Positions 26,470 to 60,082 of a stretch of DNA of 64,000 nt are shown piece after piece (position 1 is the first letter of the stretch; every line of letters begins with the position of its first letter). The DNA comes from an uncultured Candidatus Peribacteria bacterium (GTDB lineage: Bacteria; Patescibacteriota; Gracilibacteria; Peribacterales; Peribacteraceae), in the NCBI GenBank assembly GCA_964423795.1, contig CAYRGC010000005.1:316-64315 (forward strand), written 5' to 3'. A program made the translations under genes and the position numbers. The notes below the pieces were generated by a model. That model was not told where the DNA came from. It saw only the letters and a program-made list of their open reading frames with translations, and did no database searches.

Positions 26470-26523
26470 GAAGAATCTGCGGAGAAATTGACTACGGGAT
26501 TTTTTGCCGCATGCTCGGAAACC

Positions 26524-27351
26524 ATGGAACTCCACCCGCTGGTTCCCCACGGCATCGATCGCCCTCTTCATGACGATTGGCGATCGTACCTCGTGGAAGA
26601 AGTGCTCGTGGATCGTCAGAAGGAAGACCAGGCCCGGCGGCGCGAAGAAGGAGCGGATCTTTCGTACGAAGAACTCCGGGACGTCGCGAAACGCCGTGAA
26701 CAATTGTCGATCCTGGCATCGCGCATCCGTTCGACCATCGCGAAGATGCTGGAAAAAAAGATCGACGTGGAACCCGCTTCGCCGACATGGCAGGCGCCGA
26801 GCCTCGTGGAAGAGGCATTCGAAGACCAGAGGCACGATATGCTGTCCTTCCTGGGCGACCAACTGATGCTCGAAGAGGCGATCCAGCACGCCGTACCGGA
26901 CGGAATCGGCAGCGGTCTTCACCGACTCTGCATCCTTCCCGCCGGGACCGTGGACGAGATCGCCGCGCTCCTGCCGAACCACCCGCGCTTCCGCGTCTAC
27001 GTGGAGCGATACGTGCTGGAGTCCTACAGAAAACAGCTCCTGTCACGGATCTTCGGCGGCACGAACGGCGATGAATGGAAGCGCGCGACGGTCGTGTGGG
27101 CGAGCGTGGAGTACCGCATCCGGTACTGCGCCTCTTCGCGCGCGGAAGAGACGGGCCGAACTCCCGACGACCCGGACGTTCTCAAGGACATCGCGTACGA
27201 ACAGACGCGCATGGACGAATGGCTGTCGCAAGAACCGACGCTGAAGGCGGCATTCTGGGGGCTCGCCGCGAGGATCGCGCAACCGCTGGGCACGATCTTC
27301 ACGCCCATTCCTCCGCAATTGCTCGCAGCCGGAATACCCAGGCCCCGATGA
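26524..27351 (+). CDS. hypothetical protein (paralog of 27393..28292)
   Basis: Starts MELHPLVP. It shares the blocks SLVEEAFEDQRHDMLSFLGDQLMLEEA and FRVYVERYVLESYRKQ with the next gene. Confidence 0.55.
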   Translation: MELHPLVPHGIDRPLHDDWRSYLVEEVLVDRQKEDQARRREEGADLSYEELRDVAKRREQLSILASRIRSTIAKMLEKKIDVEPASPTWQAPSLVEEAFEDQRHDMLSFLGDQLMLEEAIQHAVPDGIGSGLHRLCILPAGTVDEIAALLPNHPRFRVYVERYVLESYRKQLLSRIFGGTNGDEWKRATVVWASVEYRIRYCASSRAEETGRTPDDPDVLKDIAYEQTRMDEWLSQEPTLKAAFWGLAARIAQPLGTIFTPIPPQLLAAGIPRPR

Positions 27352-27359
27352 TCGGTTGA

Positions 27360-27377
27360 CCCTCTCCTAGGAGAGGG
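27360..27377. repeat. short CT/GA hairpin (family-C-like)
   Basis: ccctctcc ta ggagaggg, followed by aatccatccc. Confidence 0.45.
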
Positions 27378-27392
27378 CAGAATCCATCCCTG

Positions 27393-28292
27393 ATGGAAAA
27401 ACACCCTTTCGAGCCCGGCGTCGACCAGGTATCGGCGACCAACAGGCAGCGCTGGCGGCGCGAACGCGAACTGCGGTGGGAGCTCGACGCTATTCGCCAC
27501 GATCCCGACCTGGAACAGCGCGAGCGCATCGAAGCCGCTCACGATTTCCGCAGTCGCATCCTGGCCCTCCAGAACGAAATCCTCATGGTGATCCGCCAGG
27601 AATTCGCCGCCGTGCAAAGCCTGGCGCCGAAGAACGCGACGGGCGCCTCTCCGCTGCCACTCGTGACCGTGCCCGATGAGGAATTGGTGCAAGACACGTT
27701 TTCACACCAGATGAAGCTCATGTACCGCTTCTGCGAGGACGAGGAACTGATGCTCGAGGCCGATCTCGCGCTCGCGCCGAGCTGGAGGCAGCGCCTGGCG
27801 GCCAGGCTGGGGGCGGGCCCGGCGTTGGGATTGGAAGACGCCGTGGCGCTCGCGGCGAAGGCCGCGCCGTTCGGCCACACGCGCGTCCGCCTGCTCGTGG
27901 AACTGGAATGGCTCGATCGGTACAAGCAAGCGATCACCGTGCCGGACGAGGAACTCCCCGCGAATCCCCGGCTCCACCTGGAATCCCTCCGCGAGAACCA
28001 CGTGCAGATGCAGTACATCGAGATCGGACAACGGGCCCGCATGAACTACTGCATCCGCGATCGCATGGATGAATGCGGATACCATCCGTTCAACCGCAAT
28101 GCCGTCGCAAGCGCCCTGAAAGACTTCCAGCAAGAACGGAAGGAAACCGCCCGCTGGCTCGCGACGCTGCGACAATCGCAGGCATCCCTCTTCTCGGCGG
28201 TCCGTTCCTGGTTCACGAAAACGAAAGAGGGAACGCCGGAACCGCTCGCGCTCATGCCCGTCCTTCAGCGCTGGTCTCCGCCGAGGGCGTGA
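27393..28292 (+). CDS. hypothetical protein (paralog of 26524..27351)
   Basis: Starts MEKHPFEP. Blocks ELVQDTFSHQMKLMYRFCEDEELMLEAD and VRLLVELEWLDRYKQA align with the upstream gene. Confidence 0.55.
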   Translation: MEKHPFEPGVDQVSATNRQRWRRERELRWELDAIRHDPDLEQRERIEAAHDFRSRILALQNEILMVIRQEFAAVQSLAPKNATGASPLPLVTVPDEELVQDTFSHQMKLMYRFCEDEELMLEADLALAPSWRQRLAARLGAGPALGLEDAVALAAKAAPFGHTRVRLLVELEWLDRYKQAITVPDEELPANPRLHLESLRENHVQMQYIEIGQRARMNYCIRDRMDECGYHPFNRNAVASALKDFQQERKETARWLATLRQSQASLFSAVRSWFTKTKEGTPEPLALMPVLQRWSPPRA

Positions 28293-28689
28293 TGGTCTCG
28301 CGCGCGTACTGCTGCCACAGGTGGGCGAGCAGGCCGCCCTGCGCGACGAGCTCCGCGAAGGCCCCTTCCTCCACGATCTTGCCGCCGTCGAGCACCACGA
28401 CGCGGTCGAAGAGGGGAAGCAGGTGCAGGCGGTGGATGGAGGAAACGACGGTCTGTCCCGTGTGATGGTCGCGGTACCAGCGCATGAGAAGCTCCGTGAC
28501 CATGCGGTACATGGCTTCCCGGAAGTTCTTCGTGATCTGGAACGACAGGATGCGCTCCAGGTTGTGGGCGGGCCCGTGCATCGCCCAGAAGACCACGCTG
28601 AGCGACGAATAGAGCGCCAGCCAGAGCGTGGCGCGGCGGAACATGCCGTCCCCGCCCTCCTGGAGGATATTGACCACCTTGCCGAGCAC
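28252..28689 (-). pseudogene. relic of an ABC exporter (MsbA-like) with the nucleotide-binding core deleted
   Basis: The ORF joins a transmembrane-domain-like part (..LWLALYSSLSVVFWA..FREAMYRMVTELLMRWYRDHHTGQ) directly to the extreme C-terminus of an ABC ATPase (TVVSSIHRLHLLPLFDRVVVLDGGKIVEEGAFAELVAQGGLLAHLWQQY). Walker A, the signature motif and Walker B are missing. The frame stays open upstream to 28848 without an ATG. Confidence 0.5.
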
Positions 28690-28826
28690 GTACAGCCCGT
28701 GACGCCTTTCCGCGTGGGTCCACGCCGTCTTGAGCAGGAGGCCTAGGAGTTCCTCTTCGGTGAAGCGGAAACGGTGGTCATCGGGGGCAGAGAGAAGACG
28801 GGCTTCGCGGTGAGTTCTTTCCGCCT

Positions 28827-29234
28827 TCAGCGATCGGCGTTCCGGGCCTCATGCGCGAAGAGCGAGTCCCCGTGTTCGTAGGGGAGTTCCACGGGAAGCC
28901 GCGGCTGGGACCCGTGCCCCATGCCGTCGTTCACAGTATTGATGACGTACGCGAGGATCGTGGGCGCGGGTACGCCGAGCGTGAGGTTCGGATGGGCCAA
29001 GTCGGCCGCTTGCTTGAGCCTGCTCGAGAGCGCGGCAAGGACGGCTGGATCCTCTTCCCCCATGGCCAGCAACCGCAGGGGACGGTCGCGGCATTCCGCG
29101 CCCGCATGCTCGAGGAACAGCTGCCTGAGACGCTCCTGTGTGAGGTCCGGACCGCGATGGGCGAACGCACGCTCGAAGAACCGGTCCATCGCGTCGACCG
29201 TGCCGCCGATCATATTTTCCGCTTCGGGATGCAC
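28827..29234 (-). CDS. hypothetical protein
   Basis: 135-aa ORF with a GTG start and protein-like composition. I recognise no family. Confidence 0.4.
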   Translation of the reverse strand: MHPEAENMIGGTVDAMDRFFERAFAHRGPDLTQERLRQLFLEHAGAECRDRPLRLLAMGEEDPAVLAALSSRLKQAADLAHPNLTLGVPAPTILAYVINTVNDGMGHGSQPRLPVELPYEHGDSLFAHEARNADR

Positions 29235-29391
29235 CGGCGGAGTATGCGAACGCGCGTCGCTCCGCCAATCGGATTCCGGGCGAATCCGGTGAAATTGCGC
29301 ATTGTCAGGGGCAAAACGACCTGATACCGTTTGCGGGCCCCGGAACGGGTGGTTTCGGGCGTCCGTTCACAGCACCGTCATCCACGCGCGT

Positions 29392-29468
29392 GGATCCGTA
29401 GCTCAGCTGGTTAGAGCGCCACACTGTCACTGTGGAGGTCGCGGGTTCGAGTCCCGTCGGGTCCGCCA
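29392..29468 (+). tRNA. tRNA-Asp (anticodon GTC), CCA encoded
   Basis: Manual cloverleaf: GGATCCG ta GCTC agctggtta GAGC g CCACA ctGTCac TGTGG aggtc GCGGG ttcgagt CCCGT CGGGTCC g cca. Confidence 0.95.
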
Positions 29469-29840
29469 TTTTCGTGTTGTAGGAATAATGCTTTCGCGAA
29501 GAAGCAAAGAGAAGCCGATGACGAGAAGCCCGTGGTGAGCAAGTCCGCCGAAGCGGACGAGCCGAACCAAGTCCCGTCGGGTCCGCCATCCTTCGTCTCC
29601 GCTCAGGATGACATCCTGGAGACAAGAGCAAAGAGACGAGAATCCTGTGGTGAGCGAGTGAGCGAAGCGAACGAGACGAAGGGAGTCCCGCTTGCCCGGC
29701 GAAGTCAGCCGACGCCGACGAAGCGGGGTCGGGTCCGCCAGCATAAATACGCGACATCAACCCTCTCCACAGTCTTCAACTTCCCCCGAGACTCCTCGTA
29801 GCGCCGCAGCGCGTAGTGGGGTCGGGTCCGCGATTTTTTC
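29469..29840. repeat. array of partial copies of the tRNA-Asp 3' end with family-A motifs
   Basis: agtcccgtcgggtccgcca (29450-29468, real) recurs exactly at 29570-29588. The shorter gtcgggtccgcca occurs at 29728-29740 and gtcgggtccgcg at 29821-29832. The family-A motif CCATCCTTCGTCTCCGCTCAGGATGAC lies at 29586-29612. The loop-expanded relative gtggtgagcgagtgagcgaagcgaacgagacgaaggg lies at 29647-29683. Confidence 0.8.
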
Positions 29841-29851
29841 TTCTGCCGGAC

Positions 29852-30811
29852 TCACTTCTTGTCCGTCAACGCCTGCAGGCAGGCGGCGCGCGTCGCGAGG
29901 ACATTCCTGCCGCAACCGGCATTCGCCATCGTTCCGTCGTCCTGCGTGTCGGCAAGAAACAGCTTCGTACGTAGTCCGTTCTGCCGGAGAAAATCCTCGC
30001 AGAAACGCATCCGTTCGACGGACGCGGGGCGCAGCGATTCTCCGCCGACCGAATGACCGGCGTTGAACGACGACAGCTTCACGCGGAACGCGGCCGCGCG
30101 ATCGCGCAGATGCCGCACGATGGACCGCATGTTCCCGTCCGAATCCGTCTGACCGTCGATCATCGGAACGTTCAACGTCACGGGGAAGCCCATGACACCG
30201 ATGCGCTCGAGAGCGGGGAACACCTCGTCGATCGGCGGGGCGGGACGGGGAATGAACGCGTCGTGAACGAGAGGGCCGTAATAGCTGTAATGGAGACGCA
30301 ACCGTCCCGGGGCGTAGCGCGCGGCCAGCTCCTCGAATGCCGGAAGGAAACGCTTGTGATTGACGCCGATCGTGGAGAGACCGAGGTGATCCATCGGGGG
30401 TTCTTCCCGATCGAGCAAGACGCGCGCCGCGGCCAGCGCCTGAAGGTTGCTTCCGGCGTCCCCGTCGGCAAAGCCGCCCGCGTCGATGACGCGGATGTTC
30501 GGCGCCGATCTGCGCAGTCGCACGTGTTCGTCGATCTGACGCACGATTTCCTCGGACGTGAATAGCGGTTTTTGCAGCGTGTCGGGAAGACCGCTGGGGC
30601 AGACCCGCTCGCAGCGACCGACGCAACCGTTGGACACCGAAAAACTGATCGATAACCGCTCGCCGTTGAGGAAACTGGCCGAGTCGGCGTGGCGACTCCC
30701 GCCGTCGGGCGCGTCCGAGAGGCGCACGAGGCATTTCATGATGCGTCGATCGGGCGCCCCTTCCACGATCAGGGTGTCGTCCGTCGCCGAGAGGATATCG
30801 AGCGACTTCAT
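29852..30811 (-). CDS. divergent RlmN/Cfr-like radical-SAM-fold protein
   Basis: Collinear with RlmN. SISFSVSNGCVGRCERVCPSG replaces CvSSQvGCxxxCxFCxTG (the spacing here is Cx3Cx3C). LGLSTIG matches itvSTsG. LRLHYSY matches LAiSLHa. KLSSFNAG matches NLIpfNp. ANAGCGRN matches AACGQL. The ATG at 30811 (MKSLDIL) is preferred over the TTG at 30829. Confidence 0.6.
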   Translation of the reverse strand: MKSLDILSATDDTLIVEGAPDRRIMKCLVRLSDAPDGGSRHADSASFLNGERLSISFSVSNGCVGRCERVCPSGLPDTLQKPLFTSEEIVRQIDEHVRLRRSAPNIRVIDAGGFADGDAGSNLQALAAARVLLDREEPPMDHLGLSTIGVNHKRFLPAFEELAARYAPGRLRLHYSYYGPLVHDAFIPRPAPPIDEVFPALERIGVMGFPVTLNVPMIDGQTDSDGNMRSIVRHLRDRAAAFRVKLSSFNAGHSVGGESLRPASVERMRFCEDFLRQNGLRTKLFLADTQDDGTMANAGCGRNVLATRAACLQALTDKK

Positions 30812-30876
30812 TGCGCAATCATACGACAAAGCGAAACGGCAGTGGCTATTTTGCGAGTACCTTTTATCATTGATCC

Positions 30877-46496: not shown

Positions 46497-46618
46497 TGGC
46501 AGGCGCGGCAGGGATCCCTTCGTCTCGTTCGCCTATCGGCTCACTCGCTCAGGGTAAACTTCCCACTGTCAGCAAATCATTGTTCATTAACGATTGTCAT
46601 CCTGAGCCTGACGAAGGA
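46497..46618. repeat. duplicate of the tRNA-Trp 3' end plus two family-A motifs
   Basis: tggcaggcgcggcagggatc at 46497-46516 is identical to 46619-46638, the 3' 20 nt of the tRNA on the minus strand. Between them lie cccttcgtctcgttcgcctatcggctcactcgctcagggt (46516-46555) and gtcatcctgagcctgacgaaggatg (46596-46620). Confidence 0.8.
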
Positions 46619-59841: not shown

Positions 59842-60082
59842 TCACTGAGTGTCACCCTGAGCGGAGTCGAGGGACGACACGGGCACGCCCGAGGGATAGA
59901 AGGAGGCGGTACTCGACCTTGGCTAAGTGTCACCCTGAGCGGAGTCGAAGGGCGACACCGGCACCCCTGAGGGGTACAAGGAGGCGGTACTCGACCTTGG
60001 CTAAGTGTCACCCTGAGCGGAGTCGAAGGGCGACACCGGCACCCCTGAGGGGTACAAGGAGGCGGTCCTCGACTTGGGCTGA
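59842..60082. repeat. three tandem units (85, 78, 78 nt), each a family-A hairpin plus a copy of the last 16 galU codons and a stop
   Basis: The units span 59842-59926, 59927-60004 and 60005-60082. Each contains gtgtcaccctgagcggagtcga(a/g)gg.gac followed by gac ac. ggc ac. cc. gag gg. ta. aag gag gcg gt. ctc gac .t. ggc t.a. Confidence 0.9.

What the first reader, a model, noticed from the sequence alone, without database searches (positions are those of the whole stretch)
29392..29840. tRNA-Asp is followed by three partial copies of its own 3' end within 370 nt, with no integrase
The 3' 19 nt agtcccgtcgggtccgcca (29450-29468) recurs exactly at 29570-29588. Shorter versions occur at 29728-29740 (gtcgggtccgcca) and 29821-29832 (gtcgggtccgcg, followed by a T-run).

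The intervals are 100-150 nt. They contain the family-A hairpin, whose 5' arm begins with the CCA of the copy (CCATCCTTCGTCTCCGCTCAGGATGAC), and a loop-expanded relative (..gagcgagtgagcgaagcgaacgagacgaaggg).

Direct repeats of a tRNA 3' end are the classic scar of site-specific integration. Here, however, the supposed elements are only about 100 nt long and no recombinase gene is nearby. The flanking genes are atypical: an ABC relic and a paralogous hypothetical pair on one side, and a degenerate radical-SAM gene on the other.
Basis: partly seen in the sequence, partly recalled or inferred. Interest (0 to 1): 0.6.

Follow-up and report, generated by a model that had tools for sequence, protein, structure and literature searches.

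The report
Stacked mini-insertions behind tRNA-Asp
The three leftover copies of the tRNA-Asp end mark two complete and one decayed copy of a small folded DNA module that sits behind many tRNA genes in this uncultured Peribacteria bacterium. The module looks like a gene-less relative of tiny nuclease-gene cassettes that insert at tRNA genes and rebuild the tRNA end.

Summary
In detail: GTCGGGTCCGC occurs four times in the window, all in this array, against 0.19 expected by chance.

It is not peculiar to tRNA-Asp. About 20 of the 46 tRNA genes in this 1.28-Mb Candidatus Peribacteria genome carry exact copies of their own 3' end 70-140 nt downstream, or of their 5' end about 90 nt upstream.

Each Asp unit is a conserved module:
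- a spacer;
- a GAGAAG box;
- a hairpin, NNN-TGAGCG..CGAA-N'N'N', whose stem covaries;
- a copy of tRNA nt 58/59-76.

The module core occurs in 13 of 61 related genomes. It always lies downstream of a tRNA, in the same orientation, and is followed by that tRNA's own end. Within the genus, tRNA-Asp has about three units here, one in G002 and none in G001.

In G001 the same position at two other tRNAs holds an 85-88-aa GIY-YIG nuclease gene. Its stop codon is the TGA of the same hairpin, and a copy of the tRNA 3' end follows.

My best reading, at about 0.55, is that these are stacked, gene-less derivatives of nuclease cassettes that rebuild the tRNA end. The closest mechanistic analogue is the fungal mitochondrial mORF. 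The resulting pattern resembles the tRNA-linked repeats of E. coli. Transcription and raw reads could not be checked.

The parts
29392..29468 (+). tRNA-Asp(GTC), intact, CCA encoded
   Evidence: ARAGORN; Rfam RF00005, 70.1 bits. It is 100% identical in congeners G001 and G002.
29469..29519 (+). Unit 1 spacer. It starts TTTTCGTG, similar to the TTTTGGCGTG trailer of the empty site in G001.
29520..29532 (+). Unit 1: GAC, which pairs with GTC at nt 59-61 of the copy (weak P1), followed by the J box GAGAAGCCCG
   Evidence: The same Asp-type J box (GAGAAGCCYG) is found in the Asp modules of G002 and G021.
29533..29569 (+). Unit 1 hairpin core: TGG-TGAGC-[GTCCGC CGAA GCGGAC]-..CGAA-CCA
   Evidence: Fold: -26.7 kcal/mol, z = -2.06. 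The P2 stem TGG/CCA covaries with CGG/CCG in G002 and CCC/GGG elsewhere.
29570..29588 (+). Copy 1: exact copy of tRNA-Asp nt 58-76, including CCA
29589..29612 (+). Its first 11 nt pair with 29673-29683, so the two ends of unit 2 form terminal inverted repeats.
   Evidence: inverted repeat I2, 10 nt, 100% complementary; minimum-free-energy fold pairs the two ends
29613..29647 (+). Unit 2 spacer and J box (GAGAATCCTG at 29638-29647). This stretch is homologous to unit 1: 88% identity over 25 nt.
   Evidence: repeat families D3, D6
29648..29683 (+). Unit 2 hairpin core (TGG TGAGCGAGTGAGCGAAGCGAACGAGACGAAGGG). P2 is no longer complementary (TGG against GGG), so this copy is hybrid or decayed.
29684..29690 (+). 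Copy 2, first part (AGTCCCG = tRNA nt 58-64)
29691..29727 (+). Nested 37-nt hairpin inserted into copy 2 at the junction of the T-stem and the acceptor stem. A similar nested insert sits in the distal copy behind tRNA-Leu-gag.
   Evidence: inverted repeat I1; (-23.6 kcal/mol, not better than shuffles)
29728..29740 (+). Copy 2, second part (GTCGGGTCCGCCA = tRNA nt 64-76)
29741..29819 (+). Unit 3 body. No recognisable core, so probably the oldest and most decayed unit.
   Evidence: no core motif found
29820..29832 (+). Copy 3 remnant (GGTCGGGTCCGCG; the CCA has become GCG)
29833..29840 (+). T-run. Together with the remnant it forms a terminator-like site. It is plausibly the original trailer of the tRNA, pushed downstream.
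   Evidence: terminator-like site at 29816-29831 plus GATTTTTT. The tRNA itself and the empty G001 site are also followed by TTTT.
46497..46618 (-). A second member of the family in the window: a module behind tRNA-Trp. It consists of a reverse minimal hairpin directly after the CCA, GGGAAGTTTA, a CCC..GGG hairpin, and an exact 20-nt copy of the tRNA-Trp 3' end.

Best explanation
**What it is.** The tail of tRNA-Asp is a stack of small non-coding insertion modules. Unit 1 is intact, unit 2 is damaged and carries a nested hairpin, and unit 3 is almost erased. They belong to a Peribacteria-wide family of elements that insert at tRNA genes and duplicate the tRNA end.

**Module layout.** Each module has a spacer, a GAGAAG box, a hairpin of the dispersed YCC-TGAGCG..CGAA-GGR family, and a copy of the tRNA from T-loop position 58/59 to CCA.

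**Proposed origin.** The modules are gene-less, MITE-like relatives of cassettes that carry an 85-105-aa GIY-YIG nuclease made of the catalytic domain only.

**Proposed mechanism (inferred, homing-type):**
1. The nuclease breaks a tRNA gene in or near the T-loop.
2. The break is repaired from a cassette-bearing copy.
3. The cassette supplies a new tRNA 3' end, so the tRNA stays intact.
4. The old 3' end, with the hairpin lodged in its T-loop, is pushed downstream.
5. That displaced copy then serves as the only right-hand homology arm in genomes whose tRNA trailers are otherwise unrelated.

Repeated events, plus unequal recombination between the 19-nt repeats, build arrays. The youngest unit lies next to the tRNA.

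**Shown:** the module anatomy, the covariation, the strict linkage to tRNAs, presence and absence among congeners, the nuclease-bearing cassettes with the same hairpin and the same repeat, and the enrichment of the nuclease genes behind tRNAs.

**Inferred:** that the nuclease drives insertion, where it cuts, and that the gene-less modules descend from, or are moved by, the gene-bearing ones.
For: 1. **Genome-wide.** About 20 of 46 tRNA genes carry exact copies of 15 nt or more of their own ends, with sharp boundaries: nt 57-59 to 76 downstream, nt 1 to 17-19 upstream.
2. **Conserved core.** GAGAAGTTTA-NNN-TGAGCG occurs in 13 of 61 relatives, with no hits for the reversed control pattern. In every one of about 40 cases it lies downstream of a co-oriented tRNA of ten amino-acid types and is followed by that tRNA's own nt 59-76.
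3. **Structure.** P2 is paired in 36 of 37 modules, using at least five different pair combinations. The 7 nt before the box are complementary to the copy's nt 59-65 (5.7 of 7 Watson-Crick pairs, against 3.8 for mismatched partners). G.U pairs of the tRNA T-stem appear as A-T in 11 of 12 readable cases.
4. **Mobility.** The same hairpin subfamily occurs at different tRNAs and in different genera. The set of occupied tRNAs differs widely among the three congeners. tRNA-Asp has about three units here, one in G002 and none in G001.
5. **Gene-bearing versions.** In G001, tRNA-Pro-ggg and tRNA-Leu-tag are each followed by a leader and a GIY-YIG gene (PF01541, E = 1e-14 and 2e-11). The gene's last codons run through a copy of the T-loop. 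Its stop codon is the TGA of CCC-TGA-GCG..CGAAGGG. tRNA nt 60-76 follow directly. A mirror-image cassette sits in front of tRNA-His.
6. **Box resembles the gene end.** The end of the box (AGT TTA CCC TGA, or AGC CTG CCC TGA) differs from the G001 gene end (AGC TTG CCC TGA) only at synonymous positions of Ser-Leu-Pro-stop.
7. **Enrichment behind tRNAs.** Of about 24 short GIY-YIG genes sampled across the family, 14 have a co-oriented tRNA within 260 nt upstream. Five are followed by a displaced tRNA 3' copy with a palindrome in its T-loop.
8. **Long GIY-YIG genes end in the same hairpin**.
9. **Copy-number correlation.** Hairpin load per genome tracks GIY-YIG copy number (rho = 0.50, p = 4e-5, n = 61). 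It does not track Y1 transposases.
10. **Decay gradient.** Copies decay with distance from the tRNA in the Asp, Leu-gag and Ser-gga arrays.
11. **Precedent.** Fungal mitochondrial mORFs show the same logic: an endonuclease ORF, an inserted replacement gene end and a displaced native end (PMC3630166).
Against: - No GIY-YIG gene or recognisable remnant lies inside any GAGAAG-type module, including the Asp units.
- No Asp cassette with a gene was found in any collection.
- The nuclease could be cargo rather than driver. Other unrelated genes also sit between tRNAs and displaced copies: an AbiTii gene, unknown ORFs, and a serine-recombinase island.
- A nuclease that cuts tRNA genes would also cut the rebuilt tRNA, unless recognition includes the trailer. 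I have no evidence for the cut site.
- The G001 cassettes lack the complementary 7-mer (P1a) that characterises the gene-less modules.
- The copy-number correlation is not corrected for phylogeny.
- Comparisons of filled and empty sites among the three congeners were uninformative, because tRNA trailers are too divergent.
- Some arrays, such as Trp in G002 and L009 and L028, are plain identical tandem duplications. Not every copy needs an insertion event.
Confidence: 0.55

Rival explanations
1. Functional trailer RNAs. The modules are co-transcribed with the tRNA and released by the tRNA 3'-end maturation machinery, because each ends in a tRNA-like 3' end. They would then act as small RNAs, processing or termination signals, or decoys, as shown for some E. 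coli tRNA-linked repeats behind rRNA operons.
For: - The modules are always co-oriented with the tRNA.
- There is covariation in P2, and P1 tracks each tRNA.
- The copy is kept identical to the tRNA end in 28 of 37 modules, even though T-stems differ between genera.
- On the + strand of 29200-29950, the only terminator-like sites are the tRNA end itself and the site after the last copy, so the array would be one transcript.
- The E. coli TLRs RrA, RrB and RrF are transcribed, processed and bind proteins (PMC8144298).
Against: - Distribution among congeners is patchy and different in each.
- Copy number is variable, and distal units are decayed or interrupted.
- The same core occurs at unrelated tRNAs.
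- Nuclease-gene and cargo-gene versions occupy the same position.
- There is no Rfam match.
- The acceptor 3' strand of the copy has no 5' partner, so the 3' tail would be single-stranded.
- This reading is not exclusive of a selfish origin.
Confidence: 0.15
2. REP-like hairpins plus local duplication. The hairpins are REP-type elements moved by the genome's RAYT-like Y1 (IS200-type) transposases, or they simply stall replication. The duplicated tRNA ends would be by-products of template switching or unequal crossing-over next to a strong hairpin.
For: - There are three Y1_Tnp genes in the genome, and one is followed by a reverse minimal hairpin.
- The hairpins are dispersed at about 45-65 copies, like REPs.
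- Identical tandem units exist (Trp in G002; L009, L027, L028).
- Direct repeats sometimes run 3-12 nt past the CCA.
Against: - Y1_Tnp is absent from 3 of the 13 genomes with the module core, and from 4 genomes with 20 or more hairpins. Hairpin load does not correlate with Y1 copy number.
- The left boundary of the copy is fixed in the T-loop (56-60) in all modules, not scattered as slippage would give.
- Tandem units can share the spacer yet carry different hairpins, as in the Leu-gag array.
Confidence: 0.15
3. Ordinary decay of integrase or recombinase att sites. Successive genomic islands integrated into the T-loop-to-CCA segment of tRNA-Asp and were later deleted, leaving attR-like copies.
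For: - Direct repeats running from the T-loop to the CCA are what T-loop-targeting integrases leave (my own knowledge of the tRNA sublocation preferences of integrases).
- In this genome a 4.5-kb island with a large serine recombinase lies between tRNA-Ser-gga and three modules.
Against: - Every unit carries the same conserved structured core rather than random island remnants.
- More than 20 tRNAs are affected in a 1.28-Mb genome that has one Xer-like tyrosine recombinase and one serine recombinase seen.
- Unit sizes cluster at 90-150 nt.
- The tRNA 5' ends are duplicated as often as the 3' ends.
Confidence: 0.08

Closest known systems
E. coli tRNA-linked repeats (TLRs; Egan and Landy 1978, Rudd 1999, as summarised in PMC8144298)
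   Same: Both are short non-coding units directly downstream of tRNA (or rRNA) genes, in one to five copies. In both, the last 18-19 bp are identical to the 3' end of the upstream gene. The origin of the tRNA-linked ones is unknown.
   Different: - No sequence relation was tested or is expected.
- The Peribacteria modules have a conserved hairpin core shared by many tRNAs and genera.
- They have a mirror-image class at tRNA 5' ends.
- They have gene-bearing relatives with a GIY-YIG nuclease.
- None of this is reported for TLRs.
Mobile endonuclease ORFs (mORFs) of fungal mitochondria that carry a replacement gene end (Allomyces macrogynus atp6; Glomus atp6, atp9, cox2, nad3; PMC3630166)
   Same: Both show an endonuclease gene flanked by a newly supplied 3' end of the target gene and the displaced native 3' end. 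The host gene stays intact and the displaced end decays.
   Different: - The targets here are bacterial tRNA genes, and according to earlier notes also protein-gene ends.
- The nuclease is a catalytic-domain-only UPF0213-type GIY-YIG of about 85 aa.
- A hairpin interrupts the displaced copy.
- Most copies, including all at tRNA-Asp, have no ORF at all.
Genomic islands and prophages integrated in tRNA genes by tyrosine or serine recombinases
   Same: Both show a direct repeat of the tRNA 3' segment starting in the T-loop, a regenerated tRNA, and tandem accretion.
   Different: No recombinase is associated with the modules. The elements are 90-150 nt long, have a conserved structured core, and also occur in 5'-end versions.
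MITEs and REP elements
   Same: Both are short, non-coding, multi-copy and hairpin-forming. Unit 2 has 10-11-nt terminal inverted repeats. An autonomous relative is inferred.
   Different: The flanking direct repeat is a 17-20-nt functional piece of the target gene with a fixed boundary in the T-loop, not a short duplication of fixed length. The modules are strictly oriented relative to the tRNA.
Free-standing GIY-YIG homing endonucleases next to tRNA genes (phage T4 SegB; my own knowledge)
   Same: Both involve a GIY-YIG nuclease gene lying among or behind tRNA genes and thought to promote its own inheritance by cutting the tRNA region of naive genomes.
   Different: Seg proteins have DNA-binding domains and leave no duplicated tRNA ends. 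The proteins here consist of the catalytic domain alone.

Membership tests
E. coli-type tRNA-linked repeats (TLR), as a descriptive class | Lies immediately downstream of a tRNA or rRNA gene, in the same orientation | tested here: met
   all parsed modules lie downstream of a co-oriented tRNA
E. coli-type tRNA-linked repeats (TLR), as a descriptive class | The last 18-19 bp of the unit are identical to the 3' end of the upstream gene | tested here: met
   Asp unit 1 is identical over 19/19 nt. 28 of 37 modules are identical over 18/18 nt.
E. coli-type tRNA-linked repeats (TLR), as a descriptive class | Sequence homology to the enterobacterial TLRs | not tested
   No comparison with E. coli TLR sequences was run. 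The class is used here only as a description.
Integrase att-site scars (tRNA-integrated islands) | A tyrosine or serine recombinase gene in or next to the element, or in intact relatives of it | tested here: not met
   The genome has one PF00589 gene, on contig C13. None was found between tRNA-Asp and its copies in G000, G001 or G002. The serine recombinase is found only at tRNA-Ser-gga.
Integrase att-site scars (tRNA-integrated islands) | A direct repeat of the tRNA 3' segment bounding the inserted DNA | tested here: met
mORF-type homing cassettes with a replacement gene end | An endonuclease ORF between the functional gene end and a displaced copy of that end | tested here: inconclusive
   Met at tRNA-Pro-ggg, tRNA-Leu-tag and tRNA-His of G001 and at five of the sampled family loci. 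Not met in the Asp array itself, which has no ORF.
mORF-type homing cassettes with a replacement gene end | The new end is foreign and the displaced end is native | not testable with these tools
   The tRNA ends are identical, so the donor and the native copy cannot be told apart. Trailer comparisons were uninformative.
mORF-type homing cassettes with a replacement gene end | The endonuclease cleaves the unoccupied target and drives homing | not testable with these tools
   This needs biochemistry or a homing assay.
MITE | Terminal inverted repeats | tested here: inconclusive
   Unit 2 has 10-11-nt inverted ends, and so do the Trp and L001 modules. Unit 1 and many other modules lack them.
MITE | A short target-site duplication of fixed length made by the transposase | tested here: not met
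   The repeat is 17-20 nt, starts at a fixed T-loop position and ends at or 0-12 nt past the CCA.
REP / RAYT system | Hairpin repeats flanking, and co-occurring with, a RAYT (Y1 transposase) gene | tested here: inconclusive
   There are three Y1_Tnp genes, one next to a hairpin. However, four hairpin-rich genomes lack Y1_Tnp and there is no copy-number correlation.
Hammerhead ribozyme (considered because of CUGA..GAA) | An invariant C3 within CUGANGA, and stems I and III that pair with other partners | tested here: not met
   The C position covaries with the 3' side (CCC/GGG, TGG/CCA, CGG/CCG). There was no Rfam hit at E up to 1.

The most novel reading that the evidence does not exclude
tRNA tails in Peribacteria may act as an integron-like gene-capture platform. 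In this reading the hairpin plus the copy of the tRNA end is the recombination site that bounds each cassette. Tiny catalytic-domain-only GIY-YIG nucleases would mobilise cassettes in trans, and the 7-mer complementary to each tRNA's nt 59-65 would help define the target. Arrays would accumulate empty cassettes, as at tRNA-Asp, as well as cargo such as AbiTii, Fic-type and unknown genes.
Probability: 0.15. Interest if true: 0.85.

Novelty: new variant of a known kind. Interest (0 to 1): 0.6.

Why it matters
Short repeats of tRNA 3' ends behind tRNA genes have been known in E. coli since 1978 without an explanation of their origin.

Here the same pattern can be studied in a lineage where it is active and abundant. 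It affects roughly half of all tRNA genes and differs between species of one genus. It is also physically linked to a candidate enzyme, a very small GIY-YIG nuclease of the widespread but functionally unexplained UPF0213 family.

If the link holds, three things follow:
- The UPF0213 family would gain a function.
- It would explain why tRNA flanks are hypervariable hot spots in candidate-phyla-radiation genomes.
- It would give a testable model for how tRNA-linked repeats, and duplicated gene ends in general, arise without an integrase.

There are also practical consequences. These modules create tRNA pseudo-fragments and spurious small ORFs. They can mislead annotation and the detection of genomic islands by tRNA-repeat methods.

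Tried and rejected
- **Ribozyme idea.** The CUGA..GAA core looked hammerhead-like. The 'invariant' C covaries as part of a 3-bp stem, and Rfam gave no hit. Rejected.
- **Retro-element idea.** I considered reverse transcription of the tRNA 3' end stopping at position 58, as with retroviral primer-binding sites. I dropped it because the direct repeats sometimes run 3-12 nt beyond the CCA into the trailer, and because DNA-level gene cassettes occupy the same sites. No reverse-transcriptase search was run.
- **Integrase scars.** Rejected as the main explanation.
- **Filled versus empty site comparison.** I fetched all tRNA flanks of G000, G001 and G002. The trailers are too divergent to show whether new material enters at the T-loop or after the CCA. 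The only hint is at Asp, where the post-distal trailer scores 13 and the proximal trailer 6 against the empty G001 site.
- **Strain-level variants of the Asp locus.** Public contig scans gave nothing in the metagenomes for the upstream flank. The module pattern found only G002 in the genome collection and one chance hit in the metagenomes.
- **Plasmid collection.** Only generic tRNA matches.
- **Failed scripts.** Two first-pass regular expressions gave unusable output and were replaced.
- **Literature.** Searches found no description of these modules in Peregrinibacteria or Peribacteria and no indexed paper holding both 'YhbQ' and 'GIY-YIG'.
Full report
**1. The observation**

The window holds tRNA-Asp(GTC) at 29392-29468. 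Its last 19 nt recur exactly at 29570-29588. Shorter versions lie at 29728-29740 and 29821-29832, the last followed by a T-run. GTCGGGTCCGC occurs four times in 64 kb, only here. The expectation is 0.19, and none of 100 shuffles reached four.

The second copy is in fact complete. It is split after AGTCCCG (29684-29690) by a nested 37-nt hairpin at 29691-29727.

**2. The organism and the scale of the phenomenon**

The window is part of a 1.28-Mb, 63% G+C, 44-contig genome with 46 tRNA genes. A congener found with the Asp module pattern is recorded as an uncultured Candidatus Peribacteria MAG.

I scanned every tRNA gene for copies of itself. About 20 of the 46 carry one of two things:
- an exact copy of nt 57-59 to 76, placed 70-140 nt downstream. 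This applies to Pro-cgg, Pro-tgg, Gln, Asn, Gly-gcc, Ser-cga, Asp, Trp and Leu-gag;
- an exact copy of nt 1 to 17-19, placed about 90 nt upstream. This applies to Arg-tct, Lys-ctt, Ala-tgc, Thr-ggt, Phe, Pro-ggg, Val-tac and Leu-caa.

The boundaries always fall in the T-loop or the D-loop.

**3. Anatomy of the unit**

The downstream units share a conserved layout:
- a variable spacer;
- a 5-7-nt stretch (P1a) complementary to nt 59-65 of the following copy;
- a box, GAGAAGTTTA (GAGAAGCCYG at Asp);
- a hairpin, NNN-TGAGCG-[variable stem-loop]-CGAA-N'N'N';
- an A;
- the tRNA's nt 59-76.

In 37 parsed modules from 14 genomes:
- The 3-bp stem P2 is paired in 36. The pair types are CCC/GGG, TCC/GGG, TCC/GGA, TGG/CCA, CGG/CCG and TGC/GTA.
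- P1a forms 5.7 of 7 Watson-Crick pairs with its own copy, against 3.8 with other copies.
- Positions 59-60, which are unpaired in a tRNA, are paired in 30 of 37.
- Where the tRNA's T-stem has a G.U pair, P1 has A-T in 11 of 12 readable cases.
- The copy is identical to the tRNA over 18/18 nt in 28 modules.

Asp unit 1 folds as expected (-26.7 kcal/mol, z = -2.06). Rfam has no matching family. A hammerhead reading fails because its invariant C covaries.

The hairpin belongs to a dispersed family, (T)GTCA-YCC-TGAGCGNAGNCGAA-GGR-TGAC. It has about 45-65 copies in this genome. At Asp unit 2, and behind tRNA-Trp, that reverse hairpin sits directly after the CCA and pairs with the far end of the unit. 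This gives terminal inverted repeats.

**4. Distribution**

The core pattern occurs in 13 of 61 related genomes. Twelve belong to the same family. The reversed control pattern gave no hits. In all of the roughly 40 cases the core lies downstream of a co-oriented tRNA of ten amino-acid types, followed by that tRNA's own end.

The same hairpin subfamily appears at different tRNAs and in different genera. For example, gagccgcagcgaga occurs at Gln in G005 and at Ser in G000.

Among the three species of the genus, the occupied tRNAs differ strongly. G000 and G002 each have about 22 affected tRNAs, but different sets. G001 has about 8. The tRNA-Asp gene is identical in all three, but it has about three units here, one in G002 and none in G001. 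The G002 unit has a compensatory CGG/CCG stem, and its repeat runs 6 nt past the CCA. The downstream genes differ in all three.

**5. Gene-bearing versions**

This genome has one Xer-like tyrosine recombinase, three RAYT-like Y1 transposases, and five small GIY-YIG genes besides two longer reading frames with a GIY-YIG match.

The long GIY-YIG genes (about 125 aa) end inside the hairpin family.

In G001, tRNA-Pro-ggg and tRNA-Leu-tag are each followed by the following, in order:
1. a leader, TTCGTCGCCCCGCTCAGGGGGC..;
2. an 85-88-aa GIY-YIG gene (PF01541, E = 1e-14 and 2e-11). Its closest solved relatives are the UPF0213 proteins 1ZG2 and 1YWL, and it has no other domain;
3. a copy of the T-loop (GGTTCAAG), read through by the last codons of the gene;
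4. the hairpin CCC-TGA-GCG..CGAAGGG, whose TGA is the stop codon;
5. tRNA nt 60-76.

A mirror-image cassette precedes tRNA-His. It consists of a displaced tRNA nt 1-38 with a palindrome in the D-loop, then the GIY-YIG gene, then the intact tRNA.

I sampled 40 GIY-YIG loci across the family:
- About 16 are of the long type and end in the hairpin (..TCA CCC TGA GC.. or ..TCA TGG TGA GC..).
- About 24 are of the short type.
- Of the short type, 14 have a co-oriented tRNA within 260 nt upstream. I estimate chance at about 0.5% per gene.
- Five are followed by a displaced tRNA 3' copy with a palindrome lodged in its T-loop.

The end of the module box (AGT TTA CCC TGA, or AGC CTG CCC TGA) differs from the G001 gene end (AGC TTG CCC TGA) only at synonymous sites of Ser-Leu-Pro-stop. 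This suggests that the box is a relic of the end of such a gene.

Across 61 genomes, hairpin load tracks GIY-YIG copy number (rho = 0.50, p = 4e-5). It does not track Y1 transposases (rho = 0.23). Four hairpin-rich genomes have no Y1 gene. This test is not corrected for phylogeny.

**6. Interpretation**

The best-supported reading is that the Asp tail is a stack of gene-less members of this cassette family. The units decay with distance from the tRNA:
- unit 1 is exact;
- unit 2 has a broken P2 and a nested insert;
- unit 3 is almost erased, but still carries a T-run like the trailer of the tRNA and of the empty G001 site.

The Leu-gag and Ser-gga arrays show the same gradient. This fits successive insertions next to the functional tRNA. 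Unequal recombination between the repeats is a second source of copies, since identical tandem units exist elsewhere.

The mechanism I propose is homing-type. It is modelled on the mitochondrial mORFs, which carry a replacement gene end. A break in the tRNA gene is repaired from a cassette-bearing donor. The cassette restores the tRNA. The displaced end remains as the right-hand homology arm. Such an arm is needed because the trailers are otherwise unrelated between genomes.

These mechanistic steps are inferred, not shown.

**7. What weakens the reading**

- No nuclease gene or remnant lies in any GAGAAG-type module.
- No Asp cassette with a gene was found.
- Other cargo occupies the same kind of position, so the nuclease could be a passenger. 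Examples are an AbiTii gene, unknown ORFs, and a 4.5-kb island with a large serine recombinase and a Fic-motif protein at tRNA-Ser-gga.
- How the rebuilt tRNA would escape re-cutting is unknown.
- A host function as a processed trailer RNA is not excluded and could coexist with a selfish origin. The E. coli TLRs behind rRNA operons are such RNAs.
- Transcription and raw reads could not be examined.

**8. Comparison with what is known, and novelty**

As a pattern, this matches the E. coli tRNA-linked repeats: 18-19 bp of the upstream gene's 3' end, in one to five copies, with no known function for the tRNA-linked ones.

As a mechanism, the closest analogue is the mORF with an inserted foreign C-terminus and a displaced native one.

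It differs from both in four ways:
- the conserved hairpin that interrupts the displaced copy;
- the mirror-image class at tRNA 5' ends;
- the catalytic-domain-only nuclease;
- the abundance of gene-less copies.

Literature searches found no description of it. Earlier notes of this scan had pointed to GIY-YIG genes and to TLRs as leads. I tested both here. I rate the finding a new variant of a known kind, of moderate to high interest.

Noticed in passing
G000 contigs C1, C3, C6, C9, C12, C17, C35 (outside the window); e.g. C12:10025-10200, C17:17332-17520: There is a mirror-image class of modules upstream of tRNA genes. Each has an exact copy of tRNA nt 1-17/19, a locus-specific hairpin, GAGC, a conserved GCTCGGTCCC box, and a 35-45-nt leader. 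They are often in tandem pairs (Phe, Pro-ggg).
   Followed up: partly
G000 contig C9:26079-31000 (outside the window): A 4.5-kb island lies between tRNA-Ser-gga and three modules ending in the Ser 3' end. It carries a membrane protein, a methyltransferase-like ORF, a 447-aa large serine recombinase (Resolvase + Recombinase + Zn_ribbon) and a protein with a Fic-type motif.
   Followed up: partly
G000 contig C6:50489-50735 and about 52316 (outside the window): Downstream of tRNA-Ala-tgc lies a second, broken tRNA-Ala copy. It has a 56-nt insert in the D-loop and a minimal CCTGAGC..CGAAGG hairpin inserted between T-loop nt 59 and 60. A further copy of the hairpin plus the 3' end lies 1.8 kb away. 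A similarly broken tRNA-Arg(tcg) copy follows that gene on contig C2.
   Followed up: partly
window 59930-60030 (contig C5 60249-60344): Two identical minimal hairpins, 78 nt apart, each preceded by the same ..CTTGGCTAA gene end. This is the duplicated galU end noted by earlier readers. It looks like the protein-gene counterpart of the tRNA modules.
   Followed up: no
G000 contigs C16:16774-17400, C8:10149-10800, C14:11674-12400: Three GIY-YIG genes of about 125 aa end in ..VVPRLRSG-stop (two of them), which is encoded by a reverse hairpin. Each is followed by a forward GTCATGGTGAGCG..CGAACCATGAC hairpin. The stop-to-stop frames (182-241 aa) extend far upstream of the first Met, so the genes may be fused in frame to the end of a host gene.
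   Followed up: partly
L010 (G021), between tRNA-Asn and its module: A 332-aa AT-rich ORF with an AbiTii (abortive infection) domain sits as cargo between the tRNA and the displaced 3' copy. Unknown ORFs of 97-177 aa sit likewise behind tRNA-Gly-ccc in G000 and G002 and between two Gln modules in G017.
   Followed up: partly
related genome G057 (same class, different family): It has 29 Y1_Tnp (IS200-like) copies, and each match contains 5-10 in-frame TGA codons. This suggests that the lineage reads TGA as an amino acid.
   Followed up: no
after the CCA of many tRNAs and displaced copies; e.g. G000 C1 after the Gln module, C1:43642-43768 between tRNA-Leu-taa and a 98-aa GIY-YIG gene: There is another trailer element, TCCG(G/T)CTTCGTC-[palindrome]-ACTACGCCG(A/T)GATG. 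It resembles the leader of the G001 nuclease cassettes (TTCGTC-[palindrome]-..CATGG) and may mark the left ends of cassettes.
   Followed up: partly
window 29852-30829 (-) and 26488-29234: The gene downstream of the array is only a weak radical-SAM match (20.8 bits, below the Pfam cut-off). The four ORFs upstream have no Pfam family. The array therefore sits in a poorly conserved stretch whose content differs in all three congeners.
   Followed up: partly
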